DNA of 64,000 bases. Source: Stegostoma tigrinum (taxonomy: Eukaryota). Below the pieces are notes generated by a model, which saw nothing but the letters and a program-made list of their open reading frames with translations, made no database searches and had not been told where the DNA came from. Shown here one piece after another: positions 22,938 through 59,591 of the stretch; within the stretch, counting starts at the first letter, position 1; each line of letters opens with the position of its first letter. The position numbers and the translations under genes were made by a program. The stretch is from contig NC_081400.1 of the NCBI RefSeq assembly GCF_030684315.1, positions 3,651,795 to 3,715,794 on the forward strand. Direction: 5' to 3'.

Positions 22938-22992
22938 ATGCCCAAGGATAGCCTCTTCCTGATGCTCCTCGTCCAACTGTTGGCTCTTCATG
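22938..22992 (+). CDS. IgSF exon 1: signal peptide
   Basis: MPKDSLFLMLLVQLLALH, donor G|gtgagt, phase 1. Confidence 0.85.
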
Positions 22993-24242
22993 GTGAGTGT
23001 GAGGCGGGGAGGGGGGGGGGTGGAATTTCAAAACGTCGCCCGGAATCGGGCGGAAAGTGGGAGTCTCTCCTCCCCTACCCCCAAACCCAACCCCCCCCCC
23101 TACATAAAGAAGGAATTTCGACCATATCCAGTGAGGATACGTATCTGAAGTCTCCCAAATTATAAGAATAACGTAGTCAATAGTGTGGGAATTGATCACT
23201 GGAGTCATTGCAGACAATGACTGTGCGGCTCTCGGGACAGCGATCAAAGGGTCTCCAATCCCATCTCTCAATAATCGCTTTAAATGCTATTTTTGTCTCT
23301 TCAGTTACAGATTCCCAGCTCACTGTGTCTCAGGGGCCCCTCGCCAAGACGGCAAAAGTCGGAGAGACGGTCGAATTGGAGTGCCATCTCAGCTACCTAG
23401 TGGAGCTGGTTACTAGCTATTTCTGGTACAAACAGACTGTCGGTGAAGCCCCGGTGGCAATCAACAGCACCAGCTGTGAGGAGCCCGCCTGTAAATTTGT
23501 TTCAAAAAAAGGTCGCAGCGAGCGCCTGCTGGTACTGGAAATCCGCAATGTCCAGGTGGATGACTCTGGGACCTACTACTGTGCTGATAGGGATGGCTAT
23601 GCTCCACTCCAAAATGGACCAAAACTGCTTGTCGGAGGTAAGAGAAACACCAAAATCAACCCTAACCGTTCATAAAATTTTCATCTTCCGATCGTTTTTC
23701 CTTAACCGTGTCCCAATCTCTGTCCAGAGAGTTCCACCGAGAAGACCTCTGTCTTAGTCTTCGTCCCGCTGTCTGTGCCTGCCCAGAATGGCACCGTCCC
23801 CTTGGTGTGTCTAGTCAGCGGCGTCTCTTCCAACCAGATTGTCATTTTCTGGAATATTTCTGGTGAGGTCACCGAGGGGGCGAGCGATGTGGGGAAGAAG
23901 GAGCCAGACGGCACCTGGAACATCACGAGTCAGGTCACAGTGACAAGTGAACAGTGGACGAGCGGTGCTCTCTGTTCTTGTGTTGTTCAACTGGGAGAAG
24001 AAATCAGGACAAAGAGTGTGTTCTTTGCCCAACAGGCAGCATCAAGGGAAGGTGAGTTATCGAGGCGCACATTGTTGGGGGGGTTATAGACCCCCAGTTT
24101 CTAAAAACTGGCAGTCCACCAATGAAATACTTCCATCAAGCAAAGGAATATAGATGGGTTTATGGATTAGAGTGTGCGTGAAAATGAACATGTTCATATA
24201 TCAGTGTGAGTACGTGTCTCTGAGGAAAACAGTGCGTATATG

Positions 24243-24289
<47 letters not shown>

Positions 24290-27200
24290 TTGCACGTAAA
24301 TGTGTTTGTGTCCATATTGGCTGTGTGCAATTGTCGATATCTCTGAGTTTATGCCATTACCTATAGGCATATGGATCTATCCATATACACGTGAATGTAT
24401 AGCTGTGAGGACATGTCTGTGTTTTTATGTCTGAGTGTATGGATGCTTGAGCGTACATGGATTTGCTTGTAAGTACGTTAATGTGTATATTAGGGGTGTG
24501 TATGCGTCACTGTCTTGAGTATATATTCAGGCCTGAGTATATGGATCTGCGTATATATGTGTTATGTGTGGGATAATTTCTTTATTCATGATGAGCGGGT
24601 CACTGTCCAGGCAGCATTTACCACCCGTCCCTAATTGCCAAGAGGACAGTTAAGAATCGAACACATTGCTGTGGATCTGGAGTCACATCTAGGTGAGACT
24701 AGGTAAGAATGGCAGTTTTCTAACATCAAGGACATCAGTGAACCAGACGGGTTTTTTTCCAAAAATCGACAATGGATTCACAGTCATCATTAGACTCTTA
24801 ATTCCAGATATTTATTGAATTCAAATTCCACCAGCTATCCTAGTAAAATTCGAACCCAGATCCCCAGAAGATTGACTGAGTGTCTGGAATGACAGTCCAG
24901 CAGTAACATCACTCGGCCATCACCTCCCCCGTGTATGCAGAGCAAATAGAAAGTGCAAGAGAAACTCAACAGGTCTGACAGCATTTGTAGAGAAAGAAAT
25001 ACAGTTAAAGCTTCGAGCCTGTTTTGACCCTTCTTCAGAACTGTGCTGTGCATGTTTGTTTTAGTTGTCTGATTATGTATATATGTGTGTGCATGTATCT
25101 ATATTTCAGTATATGCGTATATCCATGTGTTTATGTCTGTATAGAATCCATATATATTCGTTTGTATGCGTTTATATGCTTCTGCTTATATATTTCTGTG
25201 CTTGTGTGTATATACACGTGCATATATAAATATTTGTGTGTTTATGTGTCTCTGTGGATAAAAGTGTACATATGTATTTCTCTATATGCATGTATATGTG
25301 TAAATATGTATAAATATCTGCATAATAAGTGTGTGTATGTGTGAGATAGGGAGTGTGCGAGTTATTGAATGCGTGAGTCAGTAAGTGTGCTCGTGAATGC
25401 GAGAGAGTTTGTTGAGTGTGAGATAGTGCATGCATGCGAATTACTGAATGCATGAGATAGTGAGCTGAGTGTGTGAGAGTTAGTGACTGTGTTTGAGTTA
25501 GTGTGGGTTAGCAAGTGTGTGAGAATTAAACTGTGAGAGTTAGTGGGCGAGTGAGTGCATGATAATATGAACGAATTAGTGGGAGTGGGAGTGAGTGAGC
25601 ATATCAAATAGTGAGAGCAGTCCATTTAAGTATTAAGGTAATTTAATATTGCTGATTGGTGCTGATGGGGACTTGTGCCTGTGGATAGTTCCTCAGGTTA
25701 TCGACCATGTCTGCATAACATCTTTGAATCGGAGACCAATGCGTATTGAGAGAGAGGCCATTCAGACCATCACATTAGTGCCAGCTCTTTGAAGACCACT
25801 CCCCACAGCCCTGCAATCCTGAGCCCTTAATTCACAATTTGATTTCCCTTGGCAATAACTTGGGTTGGAATCAGCTCCCACCCTTGAAAGATCTTAGAAA
25901 GGCTTACACTGTCAGGTCTTGGGAGCAAGAAACTGCCAAGGAGTAAAATTGCCTGCGATTTGGGAATGGTTGGGAGGGATGAACTTGCCAGCTAAATGCG
26001 TTCAGCCCAGTCACTTCCCTCATACAATTCTCCTGAACTCTCCCTTTCTCCGTCTGCAATACCCTGAAGAAGTTAGTTCTAGTTTTGAGTCACAGTTTAA
26101 ATCTCCTGTGTCAGGTAACCCTCTGAGTTTGAAGTCTCGCTGAAAATGGACGGCTAGAAAAGTGACACTTCACAATCACTTAACTCAGAGGGTCTCTTCT
26201 GTGCCCAGAGATTTGAAGCTTGGAGGAGATGCTGATTGGAACAGGCTTCATCTGTATAAACGGGATTAACGTTAGGGTTAGGGTTAGGGGTTAGCATTAT
26301 CATTAGGGTTAGCGTTAGGATTAAGGTTAGGGTAGGGTAAATTAGGATTGGGGTTAGAGGTAGCCTTAGGGCTCAGGTTTAGGGTAGGTTTAGGGTTTGA
26401 TTTAAAGGTAGGTTTAGTGTTAGAGTTAGTGTTGGGGTTAGGGTTAGCTTTAGGGTTGGAATTAAAGGTAGGTTTAGTGTTAGGATTAGGGTTAGGGTTA
26501 GCTTCAGCGTAAGGGCTAGAGTTGCCATTAGGATTTGTGTTAATGTTAGGATTAGTCTTAAGGTAGGGTTAGGTATAAGACTAGGGTAGAATTAGGATTA
26601 GGGTTATTATTAGGATTAGGGTAGAGTTAGGTTTAGGGCCGTGTTTAGGATTTGTGTAAGGCTAGGAGCAGGGTTAGGATTAGGGTTAAAGATAGGATTA
26701 GGACTGGGACTGGGGTTTATTTAGGTTGGGATTAGGATTATGTTTAGAGTTAGGACTAAGGTTAGATTTACAGTCAGGGTCAGGGTTAGGATCAGGGTTA
26801 TGTTTAGGGTTAAGATTAGGAGTAAAATTCGGGTAGGGTATGAATAGGGTTAGGGTTAAAATTAGGGTTAGGATTAGGGTTCAGAATAGGCTTAGTTTAG
26901 GGCTATGGTCAGGGCTAGTGTTAGAGCAGAGAGTATGCACTGAGACAACCGTTGGCAAGAATCTTTTGTCCGGCTTTATCTAACTGGTGTTGTTCCCAAT
27001 TCTGTGTTCTCCCAGTGAGAAAGGATGTGAAGATTTCAGAGAGAGAGAAGGACATGGAGATGAGGAACCTCAAATCCAAGGGTAGACCAGGGAAGCTGAG
27101 GCAGCTTTCCCTGGAGAAGACAAGGCCAGATTTCATAGGGGAACATAAGATGATTCATAAAAGAAGTAATTGGGGTCATTTTCTGTAGCCAGTGGTTAGG

Positions 27201-30200
27201 GTCTGCACCTGGAGTATGGAGGTCAATTGTTCAATTGAATGTTCAATTGGTGGGTTCTCGAGGCAGTATCTAAAAGGAGGTAGTTGGTAGGACTTTATGG
27301 GCAGTTTGGGATGGTAGTGGTGCATGGTAGAAGTCTAGGGAACGGTATAAGATGCTCTTGTGGGCAACTAGTTTGGTCTCAATGGGCTGAGAGGCCTCTT
27401 TGTGCTCTATTAAGGCTCTACTGTCCTCTAAATCTTTAGTGGAAGTAATTAAAAATGACCTATTCAAAGAAACAAGTACACACGCACGCACGCACACACA
27501 CACACGCACACACATACACACACACTACAAGACCTAATAAAATTAGATAAATTAGGCATTCATCCCATTGGGTCTGCTCTGTCATTCGATCATGCCTGAT
27601 ATGCTTCTTAAGCATATCTTGGTCCCATTATCGCTCAAGAACCTATCTATCTCTGCGTTAAATACAGTCAATAATTTGGTCTCCACAACCCTCTGCAGCA
27701 ATGAGTTCCACAGTTTCTTCAACTTCTGACTGAAGAAATTCCTTTTCATCTCAGTTCTAAAGGGGAATCTCTTCACTCTGGGGCTGTGCTCAATTCCTAG
27801 TTTCTCCTACTAGCGTAGACATCTTCTCCAGATCCACTCTATCCAGGTTTCTCAGTATTCTGTAATTTTCAATCAGATCAATCCCACCGGATTATCCTAA
27901 AGGCCGAGTACCGACCTAGAGTCCTCAACTTCCCGTCATTTGACAAGCTCCTCATCCCTGGGATCATTCTTGCAAACCTCCCATGGACTGCTTCCAACAT
28001 CAGCTCACCCTTTCTTAGATAGGGGGCCCAACACTGCTCATAGTATTCCAAATATGATCTGACCACACAGGCTTAGCAGTGCATCTGTGCTCTTGCATTC
28101 TAGCTCTCTCGAAATGGAAGCTGGAATTGCACTTGCCTTCCTAAACACCAACTAAACCTGTATGTTAACCTTAAGAAAATCCTGAACTCGACCTCCCACA
28201 TCTCTTTGTGCTTCAGATTTCCAAAGCCTTTCATCATTTAAAAAAAAGCCTATGCCTCTATTCTTCTGATCAAAGTGCATAACCTCACACTTTCCCACTT
28301 TATATTCCATTTGCCATTTCTTACCCACTCCCCTAGCTTGTCCAAATCCTTCAGCAGCCTCCCCCCTCCCTCAACACTACCTGTGCCTCCATCTATCTGG
28401 ATGTTTAAGATCAATGCTCGCGGAGTTCTGAGGTCCTGGTTTTCGGGAAGGAGCAAGGATAGGTTGTGGGATTTTCCAAAAGGAGGCCAGGGATGGGAAG
28501 AGGGCTATGAGTCACTTTGGTTCATGTAGAGAGAGAGAGTGTGGGGGGTGGCAGAAAGAAAGGTAAGGAGAAGCTGGGATCTTTCTCCCCAGAGCGGAGA
28601 GGATTAAGAGGGAAGAGGAGAAATTGAATGAGGGAGGAGAGGTGAGAGGAGGTTTCCCTGCCAAGAAGCTAGCGGAGCACGACGAGGAGAATGGCCTCAT
28701 TCCGTCCTTCATCCGTCTAATATTCTGTTTACTCATAACTGTTCTTGTTTTGCAATTACGGACAAGTCCGGATCTGAAGTGACAAAGACGGTCATTCACC
28801 CAATCCCCATCTCACCGCTGTGTTGGTTACACATGGTTGATTTATACTGCATTTCAGCAGACCCCGTCCCCACTTCAGTCGCCCCCACCCTGGGTCGGAA
28901 GGGGTCAAGATTGACTCAAGTATTCCGGGAGTACAATGATTTGATGACTAAAGCGTTCTCTTATGCCTTCAGGATGGTGCAGCCAGGCGTTTCCTTACGT
29001 TACAGCAGCCTCAGTTGTAGTGGCTCTCGTGCTGATGCTCTTGATCATTTGGATTTGCAGAAGGCGAAGATCAGGTGAGAACCACTGCTTATAGGGGACC
29101 TGTTCACTTCCCACTTGCTCTCCGTTACTAATTCCAAGTTTTGTTTTTTGCTTTACTCCTGCAGGAAAAGGCAGGAGATCCCACCGTGAAAAGTGAGTAT
29201 CTGATCCATTTGCAAAGTTCACAACCTAGAGTCGGCGTCTTAAACCCCAACACCAAGTTCCTTCCCAGATTGACTCTGAGACCCCGTTCGGCTCTTTCCG
29301 CTACCCGAGTGCGGACCTACATGAATAAATCTTGCCCTGTTTTTGCCCCCCTCGCAGTTTTCGCCTGACGGAGATGTCGCAAAACGGAGGAAAGGGTCAG
29401 CGACATTCCGGTGAGTGGAGTTGAAATCTTGGGGACGTTTGAACATTCAATGGGGAGTGCATTTCCCACTGATAGGCTGTTTTGTGAAGTCTCTCATGCG
29501 TTGGCCCCTTAAATCATTAGCCATTAACGATAGCAGTGGCATTATGTCTATTTTCGCATTAGTACCGGCTGAAATATAGTTATTTATAGCAAAATCATTA
29601 AATTTATTTATAAGTGCGAGCTGTAGGAACATATTTATTATTTATTCCATCAGTAACATTGTGTTTATTTTTATTATGTTTTCACATAAGTATCAGCAGA
29701 AATTTATACTTAATTGTAAAACTCAACAGTAGCTTTATATTATTTAAAACATTCAGCAGTGACATTGTGTTTATTCACAAATACAAACACTAATATTGCA
29801 TTTTCTTATAAAAAAAACACCAGCAGTAATATATTTATTCATAATAAGAAGCATTCCATTTATTTATGTATATCAGCAGTAAGGTGATATTTATAAATAG
29901 AAGCAGTAATATTAAGTTTATTTATATATAACAGCAGCAATATCATATGTATCTGTAAATACCAGCAGTAATGTTATATTTATTCATATTCAATAACATT
30001 GCATTTAATTATACAGACAAGCAATAATGTCATATTTAGTTATAAATGCATTCAGTAACATTGCACTTAATTATAAATACAAGCAGTAATGTTATATTTA
30101 GTCGTAAATATATTCAGTAACATTGTATCTACTTATAAGTACAAGCAATAATGTTATATTTATTCTTAAGTACATGCATTAACATTGCATTTAATTATTA

Positions 30201-33200
30201 ATGCCAGCAATAATGTCATATTTATTCATAAATATATGTAGTAACATTTTGTTTAATTATAAATATCAGCTGTAATGTTATATTTGTTTCTAAACACCAG
30301 CATCATATTCTTTTTATCTATAAAGACTAGCAGTTATGGTGTGTTTATTCATAGTAATATTATATTTAATTATAAATACCAGCAGTAATAAAATATGTAT
30401 TAGTAAATAGAAGCAGTAACATTGCACTTATTTTTTTAATAACAGCAGTAAAGTTATATTTCTTTATAAATACAAGAAACAATCCTATATTTATTTATAA
30501 ATACCAACAGTATCAGTGTAGTTGTTTGTGAAAACCAGCAGTGATGTCATATATATTTTAAATACCAACATTAGTGTTATATTTATCATTTCAAATAGTA
30601 ATATTGCAGTTGTTTGTAAATATTATAAGTAACATTATAATTATTGATTAATACCAGCAGCAATGTTATATATTTATGTATTAACAACAGTGGTAACATT
30701 ATTCTCATCTAGTAATACCATTAATAAAAGAATATTTAATTAATATTTATTAATCATTGCTAATTTAATTAATTCTTGAGATGAAAAACTTGTCAGATGA
30801 AGAGATATTGAGTAGTTTAGGCTTATAGTCACTGGAGGTTAGAAGTATGAGAGGAGATCTCATTGAGGTATACAAGATGCTAAATATGATGGACAAAGTG
30901 GACGTGTAGAGGACGTTTAGCCTTGTGTAATTTGGAACAAGGCATCACAGCTTTAGGCTGAGAAGTGGCAGATTTAAAACAGAGATGTGGAGTATTTATT
31001 TCCCTGAAAGGGTAGTGAATCTGTGGAATTCACTGCCCGAGAATACGGTGCATGTTGGGGCACTGCATAAATTAAGAAAGGAGTAAACATTTTTCTTTTA
31101 ATTTGTAACTGCTTAAAGGCTTATGGAAAGCAAACAGGAGAGTGGGGTTGAGGCCAAGAAGGGATCAGCCATGATTATACATAAACGACAGAGCAGCATT
31201 GGAAGACTGACTGAATGGCCTCCTCCTGCTCCTAGTTCTTATTCAGTGAGAAAGATCAACAGTCATATGATATAGATTTATTTGTTTATTTGACAACTGT
31301 AAATTCCCAATGCCAAGTGATCTGATTAGTATTGCCTCTAGCACTGCATATGTGAATCCTGGGTTTGTAGTGAGACCCGAATGGTAGAGCTTAGCCACTC
31401 AGGGAAGGGCAAATCATGCCCTTCCATGTATTGGCAAACTGAATTTGAGGAAATATTGGAATATTGTGGAACAATAGAGTATTTAGGAAACATTGAAGTA
31501 TTGAGGGAATGTTACAGCTTTATGAGATTATTGTTGTATTGAGAGAATATTGAGGGAACATTGAGGTATCGTGGGAGTATTGGAGAACTGAGGGAACATT
31601 GGAGTTTTGAGGGAAGTGTTATATTGAAAGAATATTTTACATTGATAAAATATTAGACTATTGTGGGAATATTGATGTACAGAGGAGATATTGCTGTAAT
31701 GTGGGACCATTTGAATATTAAGAGAACGTTGGTGAATAGACTGAATATCGGGATATTGCGGGAACATTGCTGTGTTGCGGGAATATTTGAGAGTTCAGGG
31801 TATATTGGAGTTTAGAGGGAACAGTAAAATGTTGAAAGAATATTGCTGCATTGAAAGAATATTGGAGTAGTGGGTAGATATTACTGTGTTTAGAGAATGT
31901 TGGAGCATTGAAACTAGATCGCCGCATTCAGAGGATATTGCTGAATATGAGAATATTGGTGTACTGAGGGGATGTTGATGTATTGAGGAGATATTTCTAT
32001 TGTGTAGTGTCTCTTGAAGATCAAAGAGGCGATCTTTCTGTTGCACTTCAGAAGATGGAAGCAATATTAAGTGAATACTTCGCGTCTGTTTTTGCAAGAA
32101 GTGGAGGCTAGGGAACTCAGGGGAAAAATATTGATGTGTTGAAACAAGTTCATATTACAGGAGAAGTGTTGGAGATCTTAGAAAATATAAAAGTGGATAA
32201 ATTTTTCGGACCTGATCAAGAGTATCCCAGGAAGTTGTGGGAAGTTATTGATGAAATTTCAGGGACTCTTGCAGAAATATTTGTATCATCTACAAGTACA
32301 GGTGGGGTGCCAAATGACTAGAGAGTAAGTAACATTGTGCCTTTGTTTAAGGAGAGATGTGAGGAGAAACCTGGAATATATAGACCTGTGAATCTGACTT
32401 TGCTGGTGTGTAAATTGCTGGAAGTGATCCTGAAAAATAGGAGTTATATGCATTTAAGGATAGTCACCATAGTTTTGGGTGAGGGAAATCATGTCTGATA
32501 AACTTGATTGAGTTTTTTTGAGGAAGCAACCAAGAAGACTAATGAGGGCAGAGCAGTAGATATTGTTTACTTGGATTTTAGTAAAGCCTTTCACAAGATT
32601 CCATATGGTAGATGTTGAAGCTATTAATATAGTCGCACACTGGAGCGTTAGGCTTCAAGGTAAAGAGGCTTTATTAGGTGATATCACGGGGAGCTAACAC
32701 TGACAAAAGGCCAGGACTGTAGTCTTCAATGAGTACAAAAACAAGCCAATACTTATACGCACTGTGAAAGATTGAGACAACTGATGCAGTCAGATAAGCA
32801 TGTACACAGTTTATCACATCCCCTTAAGGCAGGTCATATTTCATGTCAAACATCATGGTTCCACAACTTGTGGTTGCTCATAGTTTATCTTTAAGCTTTG
32901 GGCCAACATTGAACAACAGGTTCTAAGCTTCCTGCAGATATGCAACAATTTGTTGAGGTTGTACAGGACATAAGTGAGGCTTCTTCTGGAGTACTGTGTC
33001 TAGCTCTAGTTTCCTTGTTATAAGAAGGATGTTATTAAGCTAGAGAGGGTTCAGAAGAGATTTACCAGGATGTTGTCAGGATTGGAGGATCTGAATCATA
33101 AGGTGAGATTGGATAGGCTGGAAGCCCTCTCACTGGAATGTAAGAGCTTGAGAGATGATCTTGTAGAGCTTTATTAAATCATGAAGGACCATGATAAGGT

Positions 33201-36200
33201 GAATGGCCGGTGTCTTTTCCTTAAGGTGGGGGATTTGTTACATATCTCTTACTTGACCTATTTTCCCATCATTCCAACCTCTGATGCTAAGCTTCAGCTA
33301 CATTCTACATCTAATTAGTCTTGACACTTCAATTATTCTTTCACAGTAGGCTAATTAGTAAAGTTAGACCACTTGGGATTCAGGGTGAGCTTGCCAATTG
33401 GATACAAAATTTGCTCAACAGTAGGAGGCGGAGAGTAATGGTGGAGAGTTGTTTTTTGGACTGGAGGCTTGTGACCAGCGGTGTTCCACTGGGATCAGTG
33501 CTGGGTCCATTTTTGTTAGTCATTTATATAAATGATTTACAAGAGACTATACAAAGCATGGTTGGTAAGTTTGCAGATGGCAGCAAGATTGGTGGTTTAG
33601 TGGATAGAGAAGAAGATTATTTAAAATTACATAGAGTTCTTTATCAATTGGGTCAATGGGCTGAGGAGTCGCAGATGAAGTTTAATTTGAGCTGTTACTA
33701 GGTATTGCATTTTTCTAAAACAAACAAAAATGTAAGACCTTGGGTTGTGTTGTAGAACAGGGAGACAGAGGGGTTCAGGTGCATAATTCTTTGAAGTTTG
33801 TATCACATAAGGACGGGGTGGTTAAGAAGACATTTAGCATGTTTGCTTTTATGGCTCAGACTTCTGAGTGTAGGAGTTGAGACACCATGTTGAGGTTGTA
33901 CAGGACATAAGTGAGGCCTCTTCTGGAGGACTTGCGTCTAGCTCTAGTTTCCTTGCCACAAGAAGGATGCTATTAAGCTGGAGAGGGTTCAGAAGAGACT
34001 TACCGATATGTTGTCAGGATTGGAGGATCTGAATCATAAGGAGAGATTGGACAGGCTGGGAGCCTTCTCACTGGAATGTAGGAGCTTGAGAGATGACCTT
34101 GTAGAGGTTTATAAGATCATGTAGGGTGAATGGCCGGTATCCTTTCCCTAGAGTGGGGGATTTCAAGACTAGGGGGCATATTGTTATGGTGAGATGAAAA
34201 CGATTTTAAAAAGGCATGAGGGGCATTTTTTTTATTACAGAGAGAGTGGTTTGTGTGTGGAATTAACTTCCCGAGGCAGTGATGGATACAGTACTGGTAC
34301 GCCATTTAAAAGATACTTAAATGAACAATAAATAAGAAATGTTTAGAGGGATATGGGCCAAGCACAGGCAGGTGGGACTAGTTTAATTTGGGATTTTGGT
34401 TAGCATGGATTGGTTGGACCAAAAGGTCTGTTTCCATACTGTATGACTCTATGAGCACATTGGGAAATTACCACTGATTCGGTGAGGTCATTGACATGGA
34501 GACACCATGGGTGTACTGGGGTATTGGTACATTGACAGATCATTGGTGCATGCTTTGTCTCTGTTGAGTCCCACATTTCTCAGACCAGAATTAATTTACA
34601 TTTCACATCTTAACCATTGATACACAGGTAAAAACCATCAAACAGAAGCAAAGCGGGCAAATCCAGATGGAGCACAGGTGAGTTGATTCAGAACATCATC
34701 ATAATTCACAAGAATGTAATGATTTGGGACAACATGGTGTGGAGCTGGATGAACACAACAGGCCAAGCAGCATCAGAGGAGCAGGAAAGCTAATGTTTCA
34801 AGATAATAAAATGTGAGGCTGGATGAACACAGCAGGCCCAGCAGTGTCTCAGGAGCATAAAAGCTGACGTTTCGGTCTGATGAAGGGTCTAGGCCCGAAA
34901 CGTCAGCTTTTATGCTCCTGAGATGCTGCTGGGCCTGCTGTGTCCATCCAGCCTCACATTTTATTATCTTGGATTCTCCAGCATCTGCAGTTCCCATTAT
35001 CACTGAAGCTAATGTTTCACGTCTTTTTCTGAAGATAGGTCTAGACCCGAAGCGTCAGCTTTCCTGCTCCTCTGATGCTGCTTGGCCTGCTGTGTTCATC
35101 CAGCTCCATACCTTGTTGTCTCAGATTCCCCAGCATTGGCAGTTCCTACTGTCTCTGCAATGATTTCGGACTTTCAGTTCAAGGCGCCATCTGTTGGAAA
35201 TTTCACCCAATGACACCAGATCAATCCAGAGCAACTAGCAACTCTGAGGAGTAAATCTCACAGCTCCATAGAACTGGAATGAAAACATTGCCACAAACCT
35301 TAGCCCCAGCTGATAAACAAGGGGTGTGAAGGTTAATGGTTAGGAAAAGATGCCTGTCTCAAATTTTACTGGTGTATTTCCAAATGCCTGTGTCTCTCTG
35401 TCACATCTCTCGTTTAATGCTGCTCTTTCACCTTTTTAACTGTGCACTGATACTAAACACACAGCATTCTCACTTCCAAACTCCCCCATCAAACATTTGG
35501 TTAATAGTGAGATTATAATGAGGATTCAGATTCCAGCAGTTACACAGGGCTATGCCTGAGGGTCTGTACTGGAACTCCCCCTCCCCCTCCATTCCTCACA
35601 GTGCCACATTGTCAGAGGGTCAGTGCTGAGGGAATGGGCACTGACGGATAGTCAGAACTGAGGGAGCGGGCACTGTCAGGGAGTACCGAGGGAACACCAC
35701 ACTGGCGGAATGTCAGTGCTGAGGGAGTGTCACACTGCTGGAGAGTCAGCGCTAAGGGAGCAGGCCCAGTTGGATGGTCAGCACTGAGGAAGTAAGCACT
35801 GTTGGAGGGGCATTGCTGAGGGACGGCTACACAACCGAAGGGTCAGTGCTGAGGGAATGGGCACTATTGGATGGTCAGTGCTAAGGATGACTGCACTGTT
35901 GGAGGGTCAGTGCTAAGGGAGCAGGCACTGTCAAACAGAACTGAGGGACTAGGCACAGTCAAATGACCAGTGCTGAGAGAGCTCTGCAGTGCCAGAGGGT
36001 TAGTGCTGAGGGAATACTGTTGGTGAACTCACGGGCAGAACTGGTCGCGGAACGATAGGCCGAGTCGTCTATTAGTTCCTGAAACTCAGTTGCAAGTCTG
36101 CATCATAAGACCTGAGCTGTAACTGCTTTGCATCTTGACACCTTTCCCCAGACTCCCGGTGGTCCTCTGTATGCCTCCTTGGAATTTGCTGGTCTGGAGA

Positions 36201-36232
36201 AGAGGATCAAAAAGAAGGGGGCACGCCAGTGA
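22938..36232 (+). CDS. Non-rearranging antigen-receptor-like IgSF receptor (leader-VJ-C1-TM-cytoplasmic ITIM-like), 8 exons, 341 aa; PRARP/VJC1-like
   Basis: Exons 22938-22992, 23305-23637, 23728-24051, 28973-29074, 29165-29192, 29358-29410, 34628-34677, 36152-36232; all GT-AG, compatible phases (1,1,1,1,2,1,0), total 1026 nt with no internal stop; AATAAA at 36539. Confidence 0.85.
23305..23637 (+). CDS. IgSF exon 2: V-set domain with germline-joined J-like G strand
   Basis: VGETVELEC..YFWYKQ..LEIRNVQVDDSGTYYC..QNGPKLLVG, donor G|gtaag; alternative in-phase acceptor at 23311. Confidence 0.93.
23728..24051 (+). CDS. IgSF exon 3: C1-set domain
   Basis: SVLVFVP..VPLVCLVSG..IVIFWN..EPDGTWNITSQVTV..EQWTSGALCSCVVQ; follows a 90-bp intron; donor G|gtgagt. 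Confidence 0.93.
25045..25620. repeat. (TG/TA)n low-complexity tract (also 24170-24570)
   Basis: Degenerate dinucleotide repeats. Confidence 0.85.
26266..26922 (+). repeat. Degenerate (TTAGGG)n interstitial telomere-like array
   Basis: gttagggttagggttagggg plus variants ttagga, gtaggg, tcaggg over ~650 bp. Confidence 0.85.
27555..28400 (-). mobile_element. CR1 LINE 3' fragment
   Basis: Minus-strand LEYYEQCWAPYLRK, FRTEMKRNFFSQ..LWNSL, LLKDLDKLGEW. Confidence 0.85.
28973..29074 (+). CDS. IgSF exon 4: stalk Cys and transmembrane helix
   Basis: GWCSQAFPYVTAASVVVALVLMLLIIWICRRRRS; ccttcag acceptor, G|gtgaga donor. Confidence 0.88.
29165..29192 (+). CDS. IgSF exon 5: cytoplasmic micro-exon
   Basis: Pyrimidine tract then ctgcag; GKGRRSHRE; donor gtgagt; phase 1 to 2. 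Confidence 0.78.
29358..29410 (+). CDS. IgSF exon 6: cytoplasmic
   Basis: ctcgcag acceptor; NFRLTEMSQNGGKGQRHS; donor gtgagt; phase 2 to 1. Confidence 0.78.
29540..30770. repeat. AT-rich degenerate minisatellite
   Basis: Recurrent accagcagtaatgttatatttattcataaat-like unit (~31 bp). Confidence 0.85.
30790..31242 (+). mobile_element. CR1 LINE 3' fragment
   Basis: gagaggagatctcattgaggtatacaag..gaatctgtggaattcactgcc..gaatggcctcctcctgctcct. Confidence 0.8.
31440..32000. repeat. Degenerate short-period repeat (gggaatattgga-like)
   Basis: Recurrent gaatattg/gaacattg units. Confidence 0.75.
32010..34452 (+). mobile_element. CR1 LINE, disrupted, with a nested insertion at ~32613-33310
   Basis: GPDQEYPRKLWEV, GIQGELANWIQN, SGVPLGSVLGP, KFADGSKIGG; tail tgactctatga. 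Confidence 0.88.
34628..34677 (+). CDS. IgSF exon 7: cytoplasmic
   Basis: tacacag acceptor (weak pyrimidine tract); GKNHQTEAKRANPDGAQ; donor gtgagt; phase 1 to 0 links exon 6 to exon 8. Confidence 0.68.
34730..35160. mobile_element. Nested palindromic Penelope-end elements with intact hammerhead core at 34877-34904 (+)
   Basis: Inner copy 34801-35005 flanked by 14-bp direct repeat aagctaatgtttca (34787-34800, 35006-35019). Confidence 0.8.
35184..35197 (-). promoter_or_regulatory. CTCF-like motif
   Basis: Reverse complement CCAACAGATGGCGC fits the CTCF core CCASYAGRKGGCRS with one mismatch. Confidence 0.4.
35595..36022. repeat. ~33-bp minisatellite (gagggtcagtgctgagggag..gcactgt)
   Basis: About a dozen degenerate tandem units. 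Confidence 0.85.
36152..36232 (+). CDS. IgSF exon 8: terminal exon with ITIM-like YxxL
   Basis: cctttccccag acceptor; TPGGPLYASLEFAGLEKRIKKKGARQ*. Confidence 0.8.
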   Translation, partial: TPGGPLYASLEFAGLEKRIKKKGARQ

Positions 36233-36538
36233 AGATCCAGGTGGAATTCTATCCAGGTGGGTTCAAGGAGGAGTCAGGATTTGCAATGGAACCCACAACC
36301 CTGTGGAAATCAGTCTGGAGCCCAGAAGACGCCCAGCAGATATTGAGGTCTTCCCTGTGCCTTCTCTAGCCTCTCACAAAAAATTTTGAGATCCGAGCTT
36401 GGAATAGCCATGGCTTAAATCTCAAAGCACACATTAAGGACCGACCAAGACTTTCTCCCCCGAGTTACAATGAACCCGCTTCACTTTTTTTTCTTCCCTG
36501 CAACTGCAGTCGCTTTTGCAAAATGCATGTGTAAATGA

Positions 36539-36544
36539 AATAAA
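36539..36544 (+). terminator. Polyadenylation signal of the IgSF gene
   Basis: AATAAA about 310 nt after the stop codon. Confidence 0.55.
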
Positions 36545-47874: not shown

Positions 47875-48146
47875 TCACTCCCGCTTCTGCTTGCATCGAT
47901 CGGGAACGTGACTCTGCAGAAACGGGGAGGAACGCGGGGCCCAGAGCAACAGCAGGACGAAGATCCCGATGACCAGGCAGTTCAGAACCACGGAGACCAG
48001 CACTACCCCCAGGGTGCCCCCCAGGGACGGCAGGGGTGTGTGAGCGAGCAGCCAGGCATGACGGCACGACATATCCAGGACAATAGCCTCCAGCTGGAAG
48101 TGGGTACCCATGATGGCACAGATGTGGAACAGCTGGTGGCTGTGAC
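47875..48146 (-). CDS. PAQR6: PAQR6 coding exon 7
   Basis: GHSHQLFHICAIMGTHFQLEAIVLDM..KQKRE*. Confidence 0.92.
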
Positions 48147-52222: not shown

Positions 52223-52273
<51 letters not shown>

Positions 52274-55200
52274 AGCGCGTAGGCCACATTCCGGGCTCTA
52301 GGCATCTTGGGGAGGAGCTCTCTGCTCTCCTCTCACTGAGCCCTCTTGGGTTTTTCATCGCTCCACCATTGTCAGCTTTGCTGCCCCAAGCACTGAGCTC
52401 TCTATACCTCTGCCTCCTTATCTCCACCCCTCCTTCTTCTCCTCTTTGTCTCTCTCTCTCTCTCCACTTACACCCGGCTGCCTCTCTCCCACTCCCAATC
52501 GCACATTCTACGCCTTCCTGTCCCCTCTCCCCTCCCTGACCTTCTATTCCTCTATCTCGCTCTTCCCTCTCCTTCCATCTCACCCTCCTCCCTCTGTCCA
52601 CATCTCCCTCCATCTCTCTCTCTTCCCGCTTTTGTCTGCCTCCCCCTCTCCCTCTCAGAGTCGTACAGCACGGAAACCGACCCTCGTGCCGACCTTAATC
52701 TAAAACTAGCCTAGCTCCACCTGCCACCTTCCTGGCCCGGAACCCTCCAAACCCTTCCCAATCACAAGCTCATCCGAATGTCATCTCAACTTTGTACCCA
52801 CAAGACTTCCTCTGGAAGTTCATTCCACACACAACCTACTCTCTGCATAAAACAAAATTGTCCCTCATGTCTTTTTGACAATCTATCTCCTGTCACCTAA
52901 AAATATGCCCTCAGTCTTGAAATTGCCCCACTCTAGGAAAAAGACACCAGCCATTCACCTTATCTATACCCCTCAGGATTTTATAAACCTCTATAAGCTC
53001 ACCTCTCAACTTCCTACACTGCAGTGAAAGAAGTCCCAGTCTATCCCACCTCCCCTTATAACTCAACCCCTCCAATCCTGGCAACATCCTGGACCCTCCC
53101 TAGCTTCATAATATCCTTCCTCTAACCAGCCTCCTCATCCATCTGTCTCTCCCTTCCATCTTTTTCTCCCATTGTCCACCAGACGGTAAACAAGAGGGAA
53201 GCCAGATACAGATGGAATCAGAGGGAGGCAGTGGGAGAGGGAGGAGAAAACGGGGGGGCGGGGGGGGAAGACGGGGAAGGAAAGTAGAAGGTGAAGAAGG
53301 GAGGGAGATGCTGGGGGGGGGGGACAGAGGGAAACAAGCAGGAGTTTCTCTCTCATTGTCCCGTGGAGGTTGGAGAGGACCTCGGTCGGGCCTCTCCTGG
53401 AGCACTGTGCAATGTTCTCACCGCCCCATTACATGAGGTCATTCCCAAACTGGAGAGGGTTCAGCAGAGATTTTGCAGGATATTGCCAGGAAATGGAGAG
53501 GCTGGGGCTTTTCTCGCTACAGCGTAGGATGTTGAGCAGCGACCTTATACAGGTTTAAATGGACAGGGTGTCTTTTCCCTAGCGTTGAGGCGTTTCAAGA
53601 CCAGGGGGCATACTTTTAAGACGAGAGGAGAGAGATTTAAAAAGGACATCGGAGACAACTTTTTGAAAACAAAATCACAAAGTGTGTTGAACGAACTTCG
53701 AGAGGAAGTGGTGGAAGGGTGCAGTTACAACGTTTAAAAGACTTTTGGATGAGTACATGAGTAGGAAAGGTTTGGAGGGATATTGGCCAGGAGCAGGCAG
53801 CTGGGACTAGTTTAGTTTGGGATTATGGTTGGCGCATCTCCATGTGGTCTATCTCCATGTGCGCACAACACACACCCCGCTCCACCCCCCCCCCCCCCCC
53901 CCCCCCAGCCGTCACAGCACCCCCGACACGCCAGAAGCGCCAAACTGAGTGACAAGTGTTCTCCCCACGATGAGTCCGGGCACGCACCGAGGCCGGGATA
54001 CGCTGGGTCGACAGCAGGGGCGAGGGAGAGCAACCGTACCCAGGCTGTAGAGGCTGAGGGCACCGTAGTCAAGGAAGTAGCAGATGTGTCGGACGTGAGC
54101 CGACATGGTGCTGAAGGTGTGGGCGCAGCTGGAAATGAAGGGGTACAGGCAGATGACCAACATGTAGACCAACAGCGGCCAGGCGTAAGCCTCGTTATAG
54201 AAGTCCATAGAGTGCGACAGGACCAGGAACCTCCATAGAAAATACCTGCAGCAAGGCAGGAAGACAACCATGAGGGCCAGATACACAGCAATCCTTTCCA
54301 CTGTCATTAATCTCCCAAAGGCACTATGCACAGTCAACATCACCAGTACCTCAGCTTAGGGGCAGAAAGGAAGCAGCAACAGCATTAAACCTCAAGCCGA
54401 GGGAACGTTGCTGGGCCAGTAATCCAGAAACCCACCACCAATAGTCCCAACCCGACAAGCACTGGGTTCAAAGCCCACCATGCACCCCGTTACGTGACAA
54501 TCAAGATATAACTGCATTCCAGCGCAATCCAAACGCACTAAATTGGCCAAATCCAGGGATTGGAGATGAGGAGTCACCGGTTTTCGTGACAACGTGCATG
54601 GGTTGAGGGATTAGGGAAACACACCCATCCGTACCCGGTCCGAACCCACACGTGACTCCAGGCCCAACCCGGGGCTGACTCCTAACAGAAGGCCCCAGTT
54701 CATCACGTTTAGTGTCATAGGGTCCCGCAGCACGGAAAGAGGCCGTTCGGCCCGCTACATCCGCTCCAGTGATCAAAGCAGCTCTCCATGCTATCCCATC
54801 CCCCCATCAGCTCACAGCCCAGTATGCTGTAATTTTTTTTTGGTTCAAGTGCTCAGCTCAATTTTTTTTCCTAATGTAGTTCAGATTCCCACCAACCTCT
54901 TGATGATAATGGCCTAATGTTATTATCGCTGAGCTGTTAATCCAGGAAACCCAGATAACATTCTGGGGACCTGGGTTCGAATCCTGCCACGGCACATGAT
55001 GGAATTTGAATTCAATAAAATATCTGGAATTAAGAGTCTAATGCTGACCATGAATCCATTGTTAATTGTCAGGAAAAAAACCCAGCTAGTTCACTTATGT
55101 CCTACAGGGAATGTCCTTTGCCTGGTCTGGTCTATATGTGACTCCAGACTCACAGCAATGTGGTTGACTCGGAACTGCCCTCTGGGCAATTACAGATGGG

Positions 55201-58200
55201 CAATAAATGCTGTCCAGCCAGCGACGTCCTCATCCCACTAATGTCCCCTCTAAGTCTCCTGCTCCTCCAGTGCCCCCCCCCCACCCCATTTACAGACCGA
55301 GGAAGGGATTTTCTCTATCTCTGCCCCACAGAGGGGCTGTACACCTCTGTCAGGTCCTCTCACACCCAGAACTGTTCCAAGGAAGGATCACCGGGCTTGA
55401 AACATTAACTCTGATTTTAGTCTTTTCTTCACAGATGCTGCCTTGGGGAAATCCCGTCTGCACCCTCCCTGCAGAGCGATCACGGTCTTCCTACAGTGTG
55501 GAGCTGCACTCAACAGTCCAACAGTAGCCTGAACTAATGTTATACACAGCCCTACCACAAACTCCCCTCTCTTGTTCTACACAGCTCCTTGAAAGGTGAG
55601 GAAAGCATTTTACGCACTTGTAGTTGTCGGTCAACGCTTTGAGAACTGCTGGGCTTTTCCAACGACTTTGTTTCCGTCTTCGAGTGTGGGAGTCGGGATG
55701 CGCGCTCTGTACAGGACATTGCCACAGGCTCATTTGGAATACCGCGTACAGTTCTGCTGTAAGAAGGGTGTTATTAAACTGGAAAGGGTGCAACGAAGGA
55801 TTTTTGAGGATGTTACCGAAACTGGAGGGTTTGAGTTATAAGGAGAGCCTGGAGCATATTCTTCCCTGGGAGAGTGAATCTTATAGAGGTTTATCACATT
55901 ACGGGGTCATGGATGGGGTGAATAGCAGAGGTCTGTGAGCCTTTTAGAACTACATCTCACTCCTTCTTGAAAACATTCAATGTTCCGGCCCCGACCGCTT
56001 TCCATGGCAGAGAATTCCACAGGCCACCTCCCCACTCTGAGACATTTCTCTTCATCTCAGTCCAACCCTGTCTCCTTTAAACCGTGACCTCCCCCCGTTC
56101 CCGGATCTGGACTCTTTCCTCCCATTTCCACCCCAATCATCAGGAATATCCTTCCTGCCTTTAACCCTGTCTAGTCCCACTAGGATTTTATAGGCTTCTA
56201 TGAGCTCTCCACCCTCATTCTCCCTAAATGGGGCGGCGATTCCAACCTCGGGTGACTGTCTGTGTGGAGTTTGCACATTCTCCCCGTGTCTGCGTGGGTT
56301 TCCTCCGGGTGCTCCGGTGTCCTCCCACAGTCCAAAGATGTGCAGGCGAGGTGGATTGGCCATGCTAAATTGTCCATAGTGTTCAGGGATGTGTGGGTTA
56401 TAGGGGGATGGGTCTGGATGGGATGTTCCAAAGGTCAGTGTGGACCTGTTGGTCCGAAGGGCCTGTTTCCACACTGTAGGGATTCTATGATAAACTCAAG
56501 TGAAAACAGGCACAAGTCACAGAATACAATTCTGGTCGCCCTACTGAAGGATAGATTTTATTAAACTGGAAAGGGTACAACAAAGAATTTACGAAGGTGT
56601 TACCGAGATTGGAGGGTTTAACCCCGTAAGGGGAGGCTAGGAATCTTTTCCCTGGTGTATCGGAGACCGAGGGGTAACTTCATAGAAAGTTATAAAATCC
56701 TGAACGGCATAGAAAAAGTGAATGGCCAAGGTCCTTTTCCAAATGTAGGAGATAGAGGGCACAGGTTTAAGGTGAGAAGGGAAAGATTTGAAAGGGAAGG
56801 TGGGTCTGCTCCTACCATTTTTAAATCTTTCACCTCTCACCTGAAAAACATGCCCCTAGTCTTAAAATACCCCACCCTAGGGAAAGAAGATGCCTGCCAT
56901 TCACCTTATTTACACCCCTCATTATTTTATAAACCTCTCAACCTCCTACACTCCAGGGAAAAGTGTCCCAGCCTATCCGGCCGCTCCTTATAACTCAAAC
57001 CCTCCATTCCGGCAACGTCCTGGTAAATTTTTGCCGAACCCTCTCCAGTTCAATAATATCCTTCCCATAACTGGGAGACAAGAACTGCACACGGCACTCC
57101 AGGAGAGGCCTCAACAACATCCCTGTACAACCTTAACATAATAACTCATACACTCAAAAGGTCTGAGCAATGAAGGCTAGTGTGCCAAACATCGTCTTAA
57201 CCCATCTGTCTACCAGTCAGGCAAGATTCAAAGAATTATGTACCTGAATCCCTAGGTCTCTCTGTTCTACAGCACTACCCAAGGCCCTACTTTTCATTGT
57301 ATAAAATCTTGCCTTTATTTGTTTTTCCAGGGCCCATCCTCCCAAATTAAACTTATTTATTTCTTTCCCTAGAGTAGGTGAGTGAGACAATAGGAACACG
57401 GCAAAAAGCAGGAGTTTGCCATTCGGCCCTTTTGAGCCTAAACTGTCTTTCAATTCTCTCAAAGCTGATCATCGTACTCAGGACCCTGTTCCCTGCTTTC
57501 TCCCCTTCAGAACTACATGTAAGTCCTTCTGCGGAGAGAGTGGCCATGGGGTATAAAGCAGAGAAGCTTTGAATCAATACAGGAGAGGGGGGCAGGGAGA
57601 GAAGAGACAGAGGGGCACAGAGAGAGAGAGAAAGACAGAGACACAGAGGGGGGGCAGAGAGAGAGAGAGAGAGATGAGGGGGGCACAGAGAGNNNNNNNN
57701 NNNNNNNNNNNNNNNNNNNNNNNNNNNNNNNNNNNNNNNNNNNNNNNNNNNNNNNNNNNNNNNNNNNNNNNNNNNNNNNNNNNNNNNNNNNNNNNNNNNN
57801 NNNNNNNNNNNNNNNNNNNNNNNNNNNNNNNNNNNNNNNNNNNNNNNNNNNNNNNNNNNNNNNNNNNNNNNNNNNNNNNNNNNNNNNNNNNNNNNNNNNN
57901 NNNNNNNNNNNNNNNNNNNNNNNNNNNNNNNNNNNNNNNNNNNNNNNNNNNNNNNNNNNNNNNNNNNNNNNNNNNNNNNNNNNNNNNNNNNNNNNNNNNN
58001 NNNNNNNNNNNNNNNNNNNNNNNNNNNNNNNNNNNNNNNNNNNNNNNNNNNNNTCAGAGACACAGAGGGGCACAGAAGCAGAGAGAGACAGAGACAGAGA
58101 CAGAGACACAGAGCAGGGCAGAGAGAAAGAGACAGAGACACAGAGAGGGGTAGAGAGCGGGAGAGAGACAGAGACAGGTGGAGAGAGAGAGAGAGAGACA

Positions 58201-58268
58201 GACTCACAGAGCAGGGGGCAGACAGTGAGAGAGACAGAGAGGAGCAGAGACAGAAGGAGGGTCGGGGC

Positions 58269-58299
<31 letters not shown>

Positions 58300-59591
58300 C
58301 AGACGGACACTGGGGGGGGAGCAGAGACAGAGGCAGGGCAGGGGAAATGGAGGAGGCTGGTGTACAGCAGAAATACCAGTCTAGAGCAGAGGGGTTGCAA
58401 ATGGTCTCTTTCTTGCAGTTGATACCGTTATAAGGAATTGACTGTAATAATGGTGTCCTAGCACCCTCTGGACCCCAGCTCCCTTGCCACCCAGCCCAGG
58501 CAGATCGCAGCTTACCATGTTGGGAGAAAATGCGTCCAAATGTTCACGGTCTCATTTGTCATCTGAAAGCTGCTGAGAAGGCAGTCCAGGGCCGAGCTCC
58601 TCGGGTGGCGGTAGCCGGAGATAATCCCATCTTCCCGGAATACCTGCACAGGCCAGGAACGGAGCGACGGTGAACGTGCATTTTGGTAGCACCTTCCAAG
58701 CCACCTCAAAGCTTCCCGAAGCCCTCAGTGACCAATGGCCCTGGTCGACGTCCCACTGCGAGAATCGTGGGAGCCGCCTGGCCCCCAGCAAGATCCCACG
58801 GATTGCAGCAGACCGACCCAGAGTGCCACACGCTGGTCGAGGGATAAAAATTGGCACCGTGTTGGAGTGAACTCCTTCCTCCTCCAACGAAGCTCCCTGG
58901 CACATGCCCAAAACCTTCTCTTATGCCAACAGTAATCCTAGGGCCTTGTCCATCTACCTAGTGAGCAGAGTTAACAAGGTGCAGAGCTTGATGAACACAG
59001 CAGGCCAAGCAGCATCAGAGGAGCAGGAAGGCTGACGTTTCGGGCCTAGACCCTTCATCAGGAAAATGAAGGGTCTAGGCCCGAAACGTCAGCCTTCCTG
59101 CTCCTAAGATGCTGCTTGGCCTGCTGTGTTCATCCAGCTCTCCACCTTGTTATCTCGGATTCTCCAGCATCTCTCTACCTGGAGTGAGCAGCCTGCTCTA
59201 CACCTATCCCGCCCCCCCAGTGGCCACCGTCTGGAACTACACTGTGACATTTCACCAGCAAAGCCTAATGGGAAATGTTGTCATAGCCACTTAACGCACT
59301 TAACAAGCCCTTAGGGGTATATGTGCACAGACATACAAGCTACCCAACGCTGGGGCTTTCTTTAATCCACACAGTGGCCGCACCACTTTGACTGAACTCT
59401 TGAAGAGTCATACAGAGCTGGAAACTGGAAACGTCAACTCTTCCTCTCACACGCTCGCTCTCTGCGGATCCCGCCAGCGCTGCTGAGAGTTTTCCACTGG
59501 AATCCCTTAGCTCTGAGGATTTCAGAGAGATCGGACTTACCCTGGGGACTTGGTGATTGCTTAAAAGCTGCGGCAATTTCACCGACAACAT
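47875..59591 (-). CDS. PAQR6: Membrane progestin receptor delta (progestin and adipoQ receptor family member 6), 7 coding exons, 341 aa
   Basis: Exons 59591-59541, 58643-58516, 54245-54040, 51623-51497, 50074-49978, 49265-49121, 48146-47875; GT-AG, in phase, 1026 nt. MLSVKLPQLL..QVPRVFREDGIISGYR..SSALDCLLSSFQMTNETVNIWTHFLPTWYFLWR..AHTFS..ICYFLDYGALSLYSLG..SHLPERLAPG.FDYIGHSHQLFHIC closely matches PAQR6 as I recall it; PAQR5 is the nearest alternative. Confidence 0.92.
48208..48725. other. Assembly gap flanked by (GA)n
   Basis: Run of N. Confidence 1.
49121..49265 (-). CDS. PAQR6: PAQR6 coding exon 6
   Basis: ILLCWGEDCSHNDAVPTHYHHLVFAFLTCFLFASHLPERLAPGCFDYI. Confidence 0.92.
49978..50074 (-). 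CDS. PAQR6: PAQR6 coding exon 5
   Basis: FLEIEQPKLSKALRITAFSYPFLFDNIPLFYR. Confidence 0.92.
50180..51480. repeat. Degenerate GC-rich minisatellite split by a minus-strand CR1 fragment (~50665-51150)
   Basis: Recurrent ggccctgaggcctggtgcatctcc units on both sides of CR1 3' sequence. Confidence 0.7.
51497..51623 (-). CDS. PAQR6: PAQR6 coding exon 4
   Basis: GCAVSYRAYVMPDQWINTTLHCYFTHVAVFNSLVCTTLSCYSR. Confidence 0.9.
52655..53830. mobile_element. Two CR1 3' fragments in opposite orientation (~52655-53130 minus, ~53365-53830 plus)
   Basis: ggaagttcattccacac..cctctataag on the left; ctggagagggttcagcagagattt..gggactagtttagtttgggat on the right. Confidence 0.7.
54040..54245 (-). CDS. PAQR6: PAQR6 coding exon 3
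   Basis: YFLWRFLVLSHSMDFYNEAYAWPLLVYMLVICLYPFISSCAHTFSTMSAHVRHICYFLDYGALSLYSL. Confidence 0.93.
55590..57340. mobile_element. Mosaic of CR1 fragments with an HE1-like SINE (56232-56490, +)
   Basis: HLEYRVQFC..KLERVQRR peptides, SINE core gagtttgcacattctccccg, inverted CR1 pieces meeting near 56800. Confidence 0.7.
57693..58053. other. Assembly gap flanked by (GA/GACA)n
   Basis: Run of N. Confidence 1.
58516..58643 (-). CDS. PAQR6: PAQR6 coding exon 2
   Basis: VFREDGIISGYRHPRSSALDCLLSSFQMTNETVNIWTHFLPTW. Confidence 0.93.
58972..59175. mobile_element. Palindromic Penelope-end element with intact hammerhead core at 59034-59061 (-)
   Basis: ~87-bp inverted arms (58972-59058 / 59066-59152); minus strand reads CTGATGAAGGGTCTAGGCCCGAAACGTC. 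Confidence 0.8.
59541..59591 (-). CDS. PAQR6: PAQR6 coding exon 1
   Basis: MLSVKLPQLLSNHQVPR, donor gtaagt. Confidence 0.92.

What the first reader, a model, noticed from the sequence alone, without database searches (positions are those of the whole stretch)
22938..59591. V-J/C1 gene lies tail-to-tail with PAQR6, pointing to the 1q21-25 MHC-paralogous region
Seen: the two genes converge, with ~11.6 kb between their stop codons. Established: human PAQR6 is at 1q22, in the chromosome 1 MHC paralogon that also carries CD1 and many IgSF genes, and I know of no VJ-C1 gene beside human PAQR6. Inference: the linkage supports an ancient association of antigen-receptor precursors with the proto-MHC, with later loss in mammals.
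Basis: partly seen in the sequence, partly recalled or inferred. Interest (0 to 1): 0.7.

Follow-up and report, generated by a model that had tools for sequence, protein, structure and literature searches.

The report
Shark paired VJ-C1 receptors beside PAQR6
This shark gene encodes an antibody-like surface protein whose V and J parts are already joined, and it lies tail-to-tail with PAQR6 beside antibody light-chain genes; it likely works as the 'off' member of an on/off receptor pair likely kept alike by gene conversion, and because its chromosome lacks the MHC marker genes tested, the linkage does not by itself tie antigen-receptor precursors to the proto-MHC.

Summary
Observation confirmed. 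An intact 8-exon leader-VJ-C1-TM-tail gene (341 aa, one LYASL motif, no RSS) converges on PAQR6 (not PAQR5), 11,642 bp stop to stop. Family members share a record with PAQR6 in 29 of 32 informative sharks, rays and reptiles (record-length proxy), so the linkage is old. The proto-MHC inference is not supported: all four PBX and four NOTCH genes and all class I hits lie on other contigs. This contig carries SMG5, PEX11, relaxin-3 receptors and an IQGAP, the 1q21-23 block of a different paralogon. The gene is probably a shark member of the PRARP family (papers not held; membership inferred). Two features go beyond the finding. First, a paralogue 111 kb upstream has an identical V+C1 but an Arg-bearing TM and no tyrosine motif; the same within-species homogenisation recurs in two other carpet sharks. 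Second, both genes interleave with the genome's only array of this light-chain type (likely sigma-2), including three RSS-split clusters. The scan had already noted the sister subfamily and the nearest light chain on this contig.

The parts
22938..22992 (+). Leader exon of the VJ-C1 gene (split leader, phase 1)
   Evidence: spliced to the V exon in a relative's RNA-type contig
23305..23637 (+). Single VJ exon (V-set; extra Cys pair in the C'-C'' region; degenerate J motif LQNG); no RSS
23728..24051 (+). C1-set exon, after a 90-base intron
23302..24250 (+). About 950-base tract 94-100% identical to the paralogue 111 kb upstream (C60:3563416-3573212); flanks fall to about 45-77%. Inferred gene-conversion tract
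   Evidence: doubled depth and the second junction in DNA-type runs
28973..29074 (+). Stalk cysteine and uncharged transmembrane exon
   Evidence: stalk Cys in 97 of 130 family rows
29165..29192 (+). Cytoplasmic exon 5
   Evidence: same size in the paralogue
29358..29410 (+). Cytoplasmic exon 6
34628..34677 (+). Cytoplasmic exon 7
36152..36232 (+). Last exon with the ITIM-like PLYASL motif and stop codon
47875..59591 (-). PAQR6 (membrane progestin receptor delta), 7 coding exons: 59591-59541, 58643-58516, 54245-54040, 51623-51497, 50074-49978, 49265-49121, 48146-47875

Best explanation
The window gene is a non-rearranging VJ-C1 membrane protein of an ancient jawed-vertebrate family (likely PRARP) that likely acts as the inhibitory member of a paired receptor, its Arg-TM paralogue 111 kb upstream likely being the activating member, with gene conversion likely keeping their V+C1 domains identical. 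Shown: gene structure, the two paralogues, identical ectodomains with unlike TM and tails, the family clade, and the same-record linkage with PAQR6. Inferred: both chains bind the same ligand. The LYASL tail, once phosphorylated, would recruit an SH2 phosphatase. The Arg TM would pair with an ITAM adaptor such as FcR-gamma or CD3-zeta. The stalk cysteine would form disulphide-linked dimers. The PAQR6 adjacency reflects long residence on the small chromosome that became human 1q21-23, which is not one of the four PBX/NOTCH MHC paralogons; PAQR6 is a positional marker, not a functional partner.
For: The paralogue is a full 341-aa frame with the same eight exon sizes; V and C1 exons are 99.4% identical, other exons 51-79%. 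In three carpet sharks V+C1 is 97-100% identical within a species and 80-92% between species, while TM+tail is 27-38% within a species and 78-91% between Tyr-type genes. Paralogues are sisters within species in the tree (93.8/100, 95.3/100). Of 95 family proteins with a detected TM (135 examined), 71 have a Tyr motif only, 5 an Arg TM only, 19 neither, none both. Two DNA-type runs show about double depth over the tract and the paralogue's junction. A relative's RNA-type contig splices the Arg-TM exon. The family is a clade (99.8/100) apart from IgL, TCR, UrIg, NCR3-like and SIRP-like rows; the window gene falls in a subfamily (97.5/99) with rays, chimaera, paddlefish, lungfish, caecilian, Xenopus and reptiles. 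The model (mean pLDDT 78.4) matches antibody light chains at 20-27% identity. PBX, NOTCH and class I lie elsewhere.
Against: No ligand, adaptor or signalling test. The motif has Pro at Y-2, so it is not a canonical ITIM, and there is only one. Tails of the epaulette and bamboo shark Arg-type models are short and may be incomplete. Their TM+tail is only 52% identical to the zebra-shark Arg gene, so they may be orthologues of the decayed remnant between the two genes instead. Reptile members nearly all lack an Arg TM, so pairing may be limited to some lineages. The RNA status of runs X1 and X2 is a guess and they come from a relative; the DNA-type runs all belong to one study, may be this assembly's source, and only X6 and X7 were laid. 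No PRARP sequence or paper was held. Linkage in other species rests on equal record lengths, not coordinates.
Confidence: 0.65

Rival explanations
1. One reading: the gene still sits in a true MHC paralogon (chromosome 1 copy), so the PAQR6 linkage directly records antigen-receptor precursors in the proto-MHC.
For: The block matches human 1q21-23, long called MHC-paralogous (recalled). Rearranging light-chain genes are adjacent. The linkage is old.
Against: PBX and NOTCH each occur on four contigs, the same four, none of them C60. Class I is 36 of 36 on C44. IQGAP paralogues are on C60, C47 and C3. 1q21.3 belongs with 5q23/15q21/19p13.3 (PMC5489176). CD1 there is ascribed to translocation.
Confidence: 0.1
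2. A block carrying both the VJ-C1 family and a sigma-2-type light-chain cluster moved together from the Ig/TCR complex onto this small chromosome before sharks and bony fish split, so the site is a displaced piece of the antigen-receptor cradle. Compatible with the paired-receptor function.
For: All 9 of 9 genome matches to this light-chain C exon lie at C60:3.386-3.637 Mb, interleaved with the VJ-C1 pair. Three clusters are split with 12-RSS and octamer. A second subfamily of 14 V hits lies at C60:7.81-8.60 Mb. A sawfish sigma-2 accession is about 200 numbers from sawfish PAQR6 (weak proxy).
Against: In gar and bowfin sigma-2 lies at the IgH locus (PMC5985310; PMC8423624), and white shark has a sigma-prime gene in the Ig/TCR complex (PMC12227049 table S1 row). 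Light-chain clusters are scattered over several contigs here, so they move on their own. The tree does not join the family to this light chain; its sister is TCR with weak support (65.7/85).
Confidence: 0.2
3. The gene is a germline-joined light chain from the neighbouring array that captured TM and tail exons.
For: Adjacent to germline-joined light-chain genes; light-chain-like fold.
Against: Only 28-31% identical to the array's V and C. It falls in a separate clade with bony-vertebrate members. No octamer and a 90-base J-C intron, against 2-12 kb V-C distances in the array.
Confidence: 0.03
4. The upstream copy is an assembly artefact or a dead partial duplicate, and the window gene is a lone inhibitory receptor.
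For: V and C1 are identical in protein; a decayed Arg-type remnant does exist between the copies.
Against: Open 8-exon frame with its own leader, TM and tail; doubled depth and second junction; the pattern repeats in two other species; spliced Arg-TM exon in a relative.
Confidence: 0.07

Closest known systems
PRARP1/2 of chicken and VJC1 genes of Xenopus (Fu et al. 2019; Ohta et al. 2019). Neither paper held; titles and citing passages seen in PMC10751288 and PMC11599192, the rest recalled
   Same: Non-rearranging VJ exon, C1 domain, TM, tyrosine motif; two ancient subfamilies; members in fish, amphibians and reptiles; none seen in mammals.
   Different: Here an Arg-TM, tyrosine-less paralogue with a homogenised ectodomain, a degenerate J motif, expanded copy numbers in sharks, and interleaving with rearranging light-chain clusters. 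None of this was found in the papers searched.
UrIg and UrIg2 (PMC12227049, parts 1-4 of 8 and section 19 read)
   Same: Single-exon VJ followed by C1, split leader, shark antigen-receptor-like genes; gene conversion among UrIg2 C domains.
   Different: One C1 rather than 3-11; signalling tail; lies outside the MHC and the Ig/TCR complex; separate in the tree from the C44 gene taken as UrIg.
Paired receptor families (SIRP alpha/beta, LILR/PIR, KIR, NITR); mechanism from established knowledge
   Same: Near-identical ectodomains on a tyrosine-motif chain and on a chain with a basic TM residue; clustered; conversion between pairs.
   Different: V plus one C1 with a stalk cysteine; not in a clade with the two SIRP-like VJ-C1 rows from C19; no human SIRP, LILR or NITR sequence was in the tree.
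Ig light chains and TCR chains
   Same: V-C1 fold; best structural matches are antibody light chains.
   Different: No RSS, no octamer, 20-27% identity, membrane-anchored with a long tail.

Membership tests
PRARP / VJC1 | V and J-like segment in one exon, no RSS | tested here: met
PRARP / VJC1 | Canonical FGxG J motif (feature recalled from the abstract) | tested here: inconclusive
   Window has LQNG; family consensus is FGNG
PRARP / VJC1 | C1 domain, TM and ITIM/ITSM-like tail | tested here: met
   motif non-canonical at Y-2
PRARP / VJC1 | Orthology with chicken PRARP1/2 sequences | not testable with these tools
   No bird hit among 96; papers not held. Clade includes alligator, turtles, lizards and Xenopus
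PRARP / VJC1 | Disulphide-linked dimers, expression in B and T cells (recalled) | not testable with these tools
   Stalk Cys conserved in 97 of 130 rows; no cell-type data found
PAQR6 (versus PAQR5) | Closest to named PAQR6 proteins and adjacent to SMG5 | tested here: met
   no named PAQR5 was in the comparison, the C43 paralogue served as outgroup
MHC paralogon | Carries PBX and NOTCH ohnologues | tested here: not met
   C10, C37, C44, C45 only
MHC paralogon | Carries class I or CD1-like genes | tested here: not met
   36 of 36 hits on C44
MHC paralogon | RXR, BRD, TNC, PSMB ohnologues | not tested
   not searched
Rearranging or germline-joined Ig light chain | Nests within IgL, octamer promoter, RSS | tested here: not met
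Paired activating/inhibitory receptors | Near-identical ectodomains with opposite TM/tail types | tested here: met
Paired activating/inhibitory receptors | Phosphatase recruitment and ITAM-adaptor pairing | not testable with these tools
   needs cell assays
IgL sigma-2 (neighbouring array) | V-J-C miniclusters, some split and some joined; orthology to NS5/type I | tested here: inconclusive
   Organisation fits PMC5192425 (passages); the isotype label rests on recalled sequence likeness and an earlier scan note, no named reference was aligned

The most novel reading that the evidence does not exclude
This small chromosome holds a displaced fragment of the original antigen-receptor complex: a non-rearranging VJ-C1 family, older than the shark/bony-fish split, still interleaved with RSS-split light-chain clusters. 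The family is the living sister of TCR chains and has since become a paired on/off receptor system whose binding domains are homogenised by gene conversion.
Probability: 0.18. Interest if true: 0.78.

Novelty: new variant of a known kind. Interest (0 to 1): 0.5.

Why it matters
Non-rearranging VJ-C1 genes are the main candidates for the gene type that the RAG transposon split, and their map positions are used as evidence for a proto-MHC origin. This locus shows that one such family is anchored, from sharks to reptiles, on a chromosome outside the four MHC paralogons, so position near human 1q22 should not be counted as proto-MHC evidence without invoking translocation. It also places rearranging light-chain clusters outside the paralogue where recent models put RAG invasion (PMC10751288). 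The gene pair gives a concrete, testable candidate for an NK-type on/off receptor in sharks.

Tried and rejected
Papers not held: Fu 2019, Ohta 2019, Flajnik 2023 (UrIg), Dornburg and Yoder 2022, Criscitiello and Flajnik 2007. Their text, figures and supplements may already describe shark members or the light-chain linkage. Ten paper searches found no description of this locus, of Arg-TM paralogues in this family, or of a light-chain array beside PAQR6. Supplements of PMC10751288 and PMC12227049 hold no 'PAQR6'; those of a shark single-cell paper hold neither bamboo-shark locus id (PMC11372145). First structure model from 14 rows failed (pLDDT 34.7); 130 rows worked. Homodimer prediction gave no verdict (0.24, mark 0.32). 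No RNA holder listed on record. A Pfam genome search for SMG5-type genes missed C60, although SMG5 is there, so family searches can miss genes. The Xlink search found no lectican on C60, where BCAN/HAPLN2 would be expected. The NOTCH exons on C10 and C45 both matched NOTCH2 best, so which contig is the chromosome-1 paralogon is open. No V or C1 remnant was found for the decayed Arg-type TM exons. Rejected: PAQR5, derivation from the light-chain array, assembly artefact, SIRP-like clade.

Full report
Observation. The window lies at G000:C60:3651795-3715794. Source names of the identical proteins P0001 and P0020 give the species as the zebra shark. The plus-strand gene has eight exons from 22938 to 36232, GT-AG introns throughout, and an open frame of 341 aa: leader, one VJ exon, C1, stalk cysteine with uncharged TM, and a tail with PLYASL. 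Pfam gives V-set and C1-set. There is no RSS and no octamer. A model built on 130 family rows is confident over both domains (mean pLDDT 78.4) and matches antibody light chains at 20-27% identity. Contigs of two runs guessed to be RNA, from a relative, join leader to V, V to C1 and C1 to a TM-like exon. The minus-strand gene runs 59591-47875; the stop codons are 11,642 bases apart. It is PAQR6: named hits read mPR-delta/PAQR6 apart from one partial record, 17 of 17 compared proteins are closer to it than to the C43 paralogue, and SMG5 follows about 90 kb further on. One qualification: the J motif is LQNG, whereas the family mostly has FGNG.

Is the linkage real elsewhere? Other genomes could not be read, so I compared the length of the record that holds each protein. 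Of 33 species for which both a family member and PAQR6 were retrieved, 30 share a length; lungfish is uninformative (capped length), leaving 29 of 32: 7 sharks, 3 rays (one through subfamily 2), 9 turtles, 9 lizards and 1 alligator. The three misses are scaffold-level assemblies (tallied in 124). Species with only one of the two genes retrieved, and sea turtles whose PAQR6 record merges several species, were left out. This shows same-chromosome linkage, not adjacency; close accession numbers in epaulette shark and a manta ray hint at proximity.

What the family is. A profile search found relatives in rays, chimaera, paddlefish, lungfish, caecilian, turtles, lizards and alligators. In a V+C1 tree of 55 rows chosen by me from some 260 hits plus zebra-shark reference genes, the family is one clade (SH-aLRT/UFBoot 99.8/100), apart from light chains, TCR beta and gamma, the C44 gene taken as UrIg, an NCR3-like gene and two SIRP-like genes; labels of these reference rows are my own. 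The window gene is in a subfamily (97.5/99) whose branching follows the species tree. A second subfamily (81.8/79) holds turtle, ray and the cluster at C60:7.81-8.60 Mb. The family is thus older than the shark/bony-fish split. Its architecture and range fit PRARP as I recall it; the title of that paper and one-line mentions were seen, but neither sequences nor text, so membership is inferred. No mammal or bird appeared among the named hits; that is consistent with loss in mammals but is not a full test.

The pair. A second copy lies at C60:3563416-3573212. It has the same eight exon sizes and an open 341-aa frame. V and C1 exons are 99.4% identical to the window gene, all other exons 51-79%, and identity drops sharply outside a tract of about 950 bases. 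Its TM carries an arginine near the outer end, and its last exon has lost the tyrosine. Epaulette and whitespotted bamboo sharks show the same pattern: ectodomains group by species, TM and tails by type. Across 95 proteins with a TM, Arg and tyrosine motif never co-occur, though only 5 are Arg-type. Two DNA-type runs of one study show double depth over the tract and the second junction, and a relative splices the Arg-TM exon. By analogy with known paired receptors, the window gene likely inhibits and the paralogue likely activates through an ITAM adaptor, both seeing one ligand. These signalling steps are inferred.

The neighbourhood. Order along C60: PEX11 (3.32 Mb); light-chain miniclusters (3.37-3.56 Mb); Arg-type VJ-C1; a decayed Arg-type remnant; a germline-joined light chain with a short CDR3 (3.634-3.637 Mb); the window gene; PAQR6; two relaxin-3-receptor-like genes; an ankyrin/coiled-coil gene; SMG5. 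Three light-chain clusters are split, each with octamer, V-12-RSS and a J with a 23-spacer signal read by eye; others are joined or decayed. All 9 of 9 genome matches to this C exon are here. The isotype is likely sigma-2 (organisation as in PMC5192425, passages; label partly recalled). In gar and bowfin sigma-2 lies at the IgH locus, as does a sigma-prime gene in white shark.

The proto-MHC claim. The flanking genes map to human 1q21-23 (positions recalled). But the shark's four PBX and four NOTCH genes lie on C10, C37, C44 and C45, and all 36 class I hits on C44; IQGAP paralogues lie on C60, C47 and C3. A paper assigns 1q21.3 to an ohnologue set with 5q23, 15q21 and 19p13.3 (PMC5489176, passages). 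Two papers say CD1 reached chromosome 1 by translocation (PMC10751288; PMC9586880). Family searches can miss a gene, but here four copies each of PBX and NOTCH are accounted for elsewhere. So the linkage is old but does not mark an MHC paralogon. A tie to the proto-MHC needs a translocation, which the adjacent light chains make plausible but do not prove. The general hypothesis is in print (PMC10751288, parts 2 and 4 of 7 read; PMC12227049).

Verdict. Real and conserved linkage, a probable member of a known family, first interpretation half right. The paired, homogenised receptor and the interleaving with rearranging light chains were not found in ten paper searches, but the key papers were not held. 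Earlier scan notes had already flagged the sister subfamily and the nearest light chain; my reading was written before seeing them. Interest 0.5.

Noticed in passing
G000:C60:3373513-3637185 (L033-L050, L011, L019): Array of nine light-chain C exons, likely sigma-2: three RSS-split clusters with octamers, germline-joined copies and pseudogenes; the only matches to this C exon in the genome.
   Followed up: partly
G000:C60:3633551-3637185 (L019): Intact germline-joined light chain with octamer and very short CDR3, about 38 kb upstream of the window gene.
   Followed up: partly
G000:C60:about 3601030-3603470 (L015-L016): Decayed third family member: frameshifted Arg-type TM exon and tail exons, with no V or C1 found.
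   Followed up: partly
G000:C60:7811935-8599850: Second subfamily of non-rearranging VJ-C1 genes, 14 V hits with FGNG motif, two with stops; clusters with turtle and ray genes.
   Followed up: partly
window 7487-8290 (+): Single-exon rhodopsin-type 7TM remnant interrupted by an in-frame stop at 7781-7783.
   Followed up: partly
L022:4897-6099 and L023:3309-4601 (+): Two tandem single-exon relaxin-3-receptor-like genes beyond PAQR6.
   Followed up: partly
P0006-P0009, P0012, P0014-P0017 (horn shark records): Nine protein clusters of the subfamily on one 22-Mb record, varying at CDR1- and CDR3-like positions; one has an Arg TM.
   Followed up: no
G000:C51:767301 and C59:6154598: Two TCR-beta-like constant exons on different contigs.
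   Followed up: no
L071:2932-3290 (G000:C34): Light-chain gene with V and J in one frame and a short CDR3, distinct from the lambda-like gene in L072.
   Followed up: no
G000:C60:about 3483900-3486800 and 3587000-3590400: Two copies of a non-LTR retrotransposon-like element (gag-like and endonuclease/RT-like frames) inside the array.
   Followed up: no
L012:5860-5890: In run X1 the Arg-type transcript appears to skip exon 6, which would shift the tail frame.
   Followed up: no
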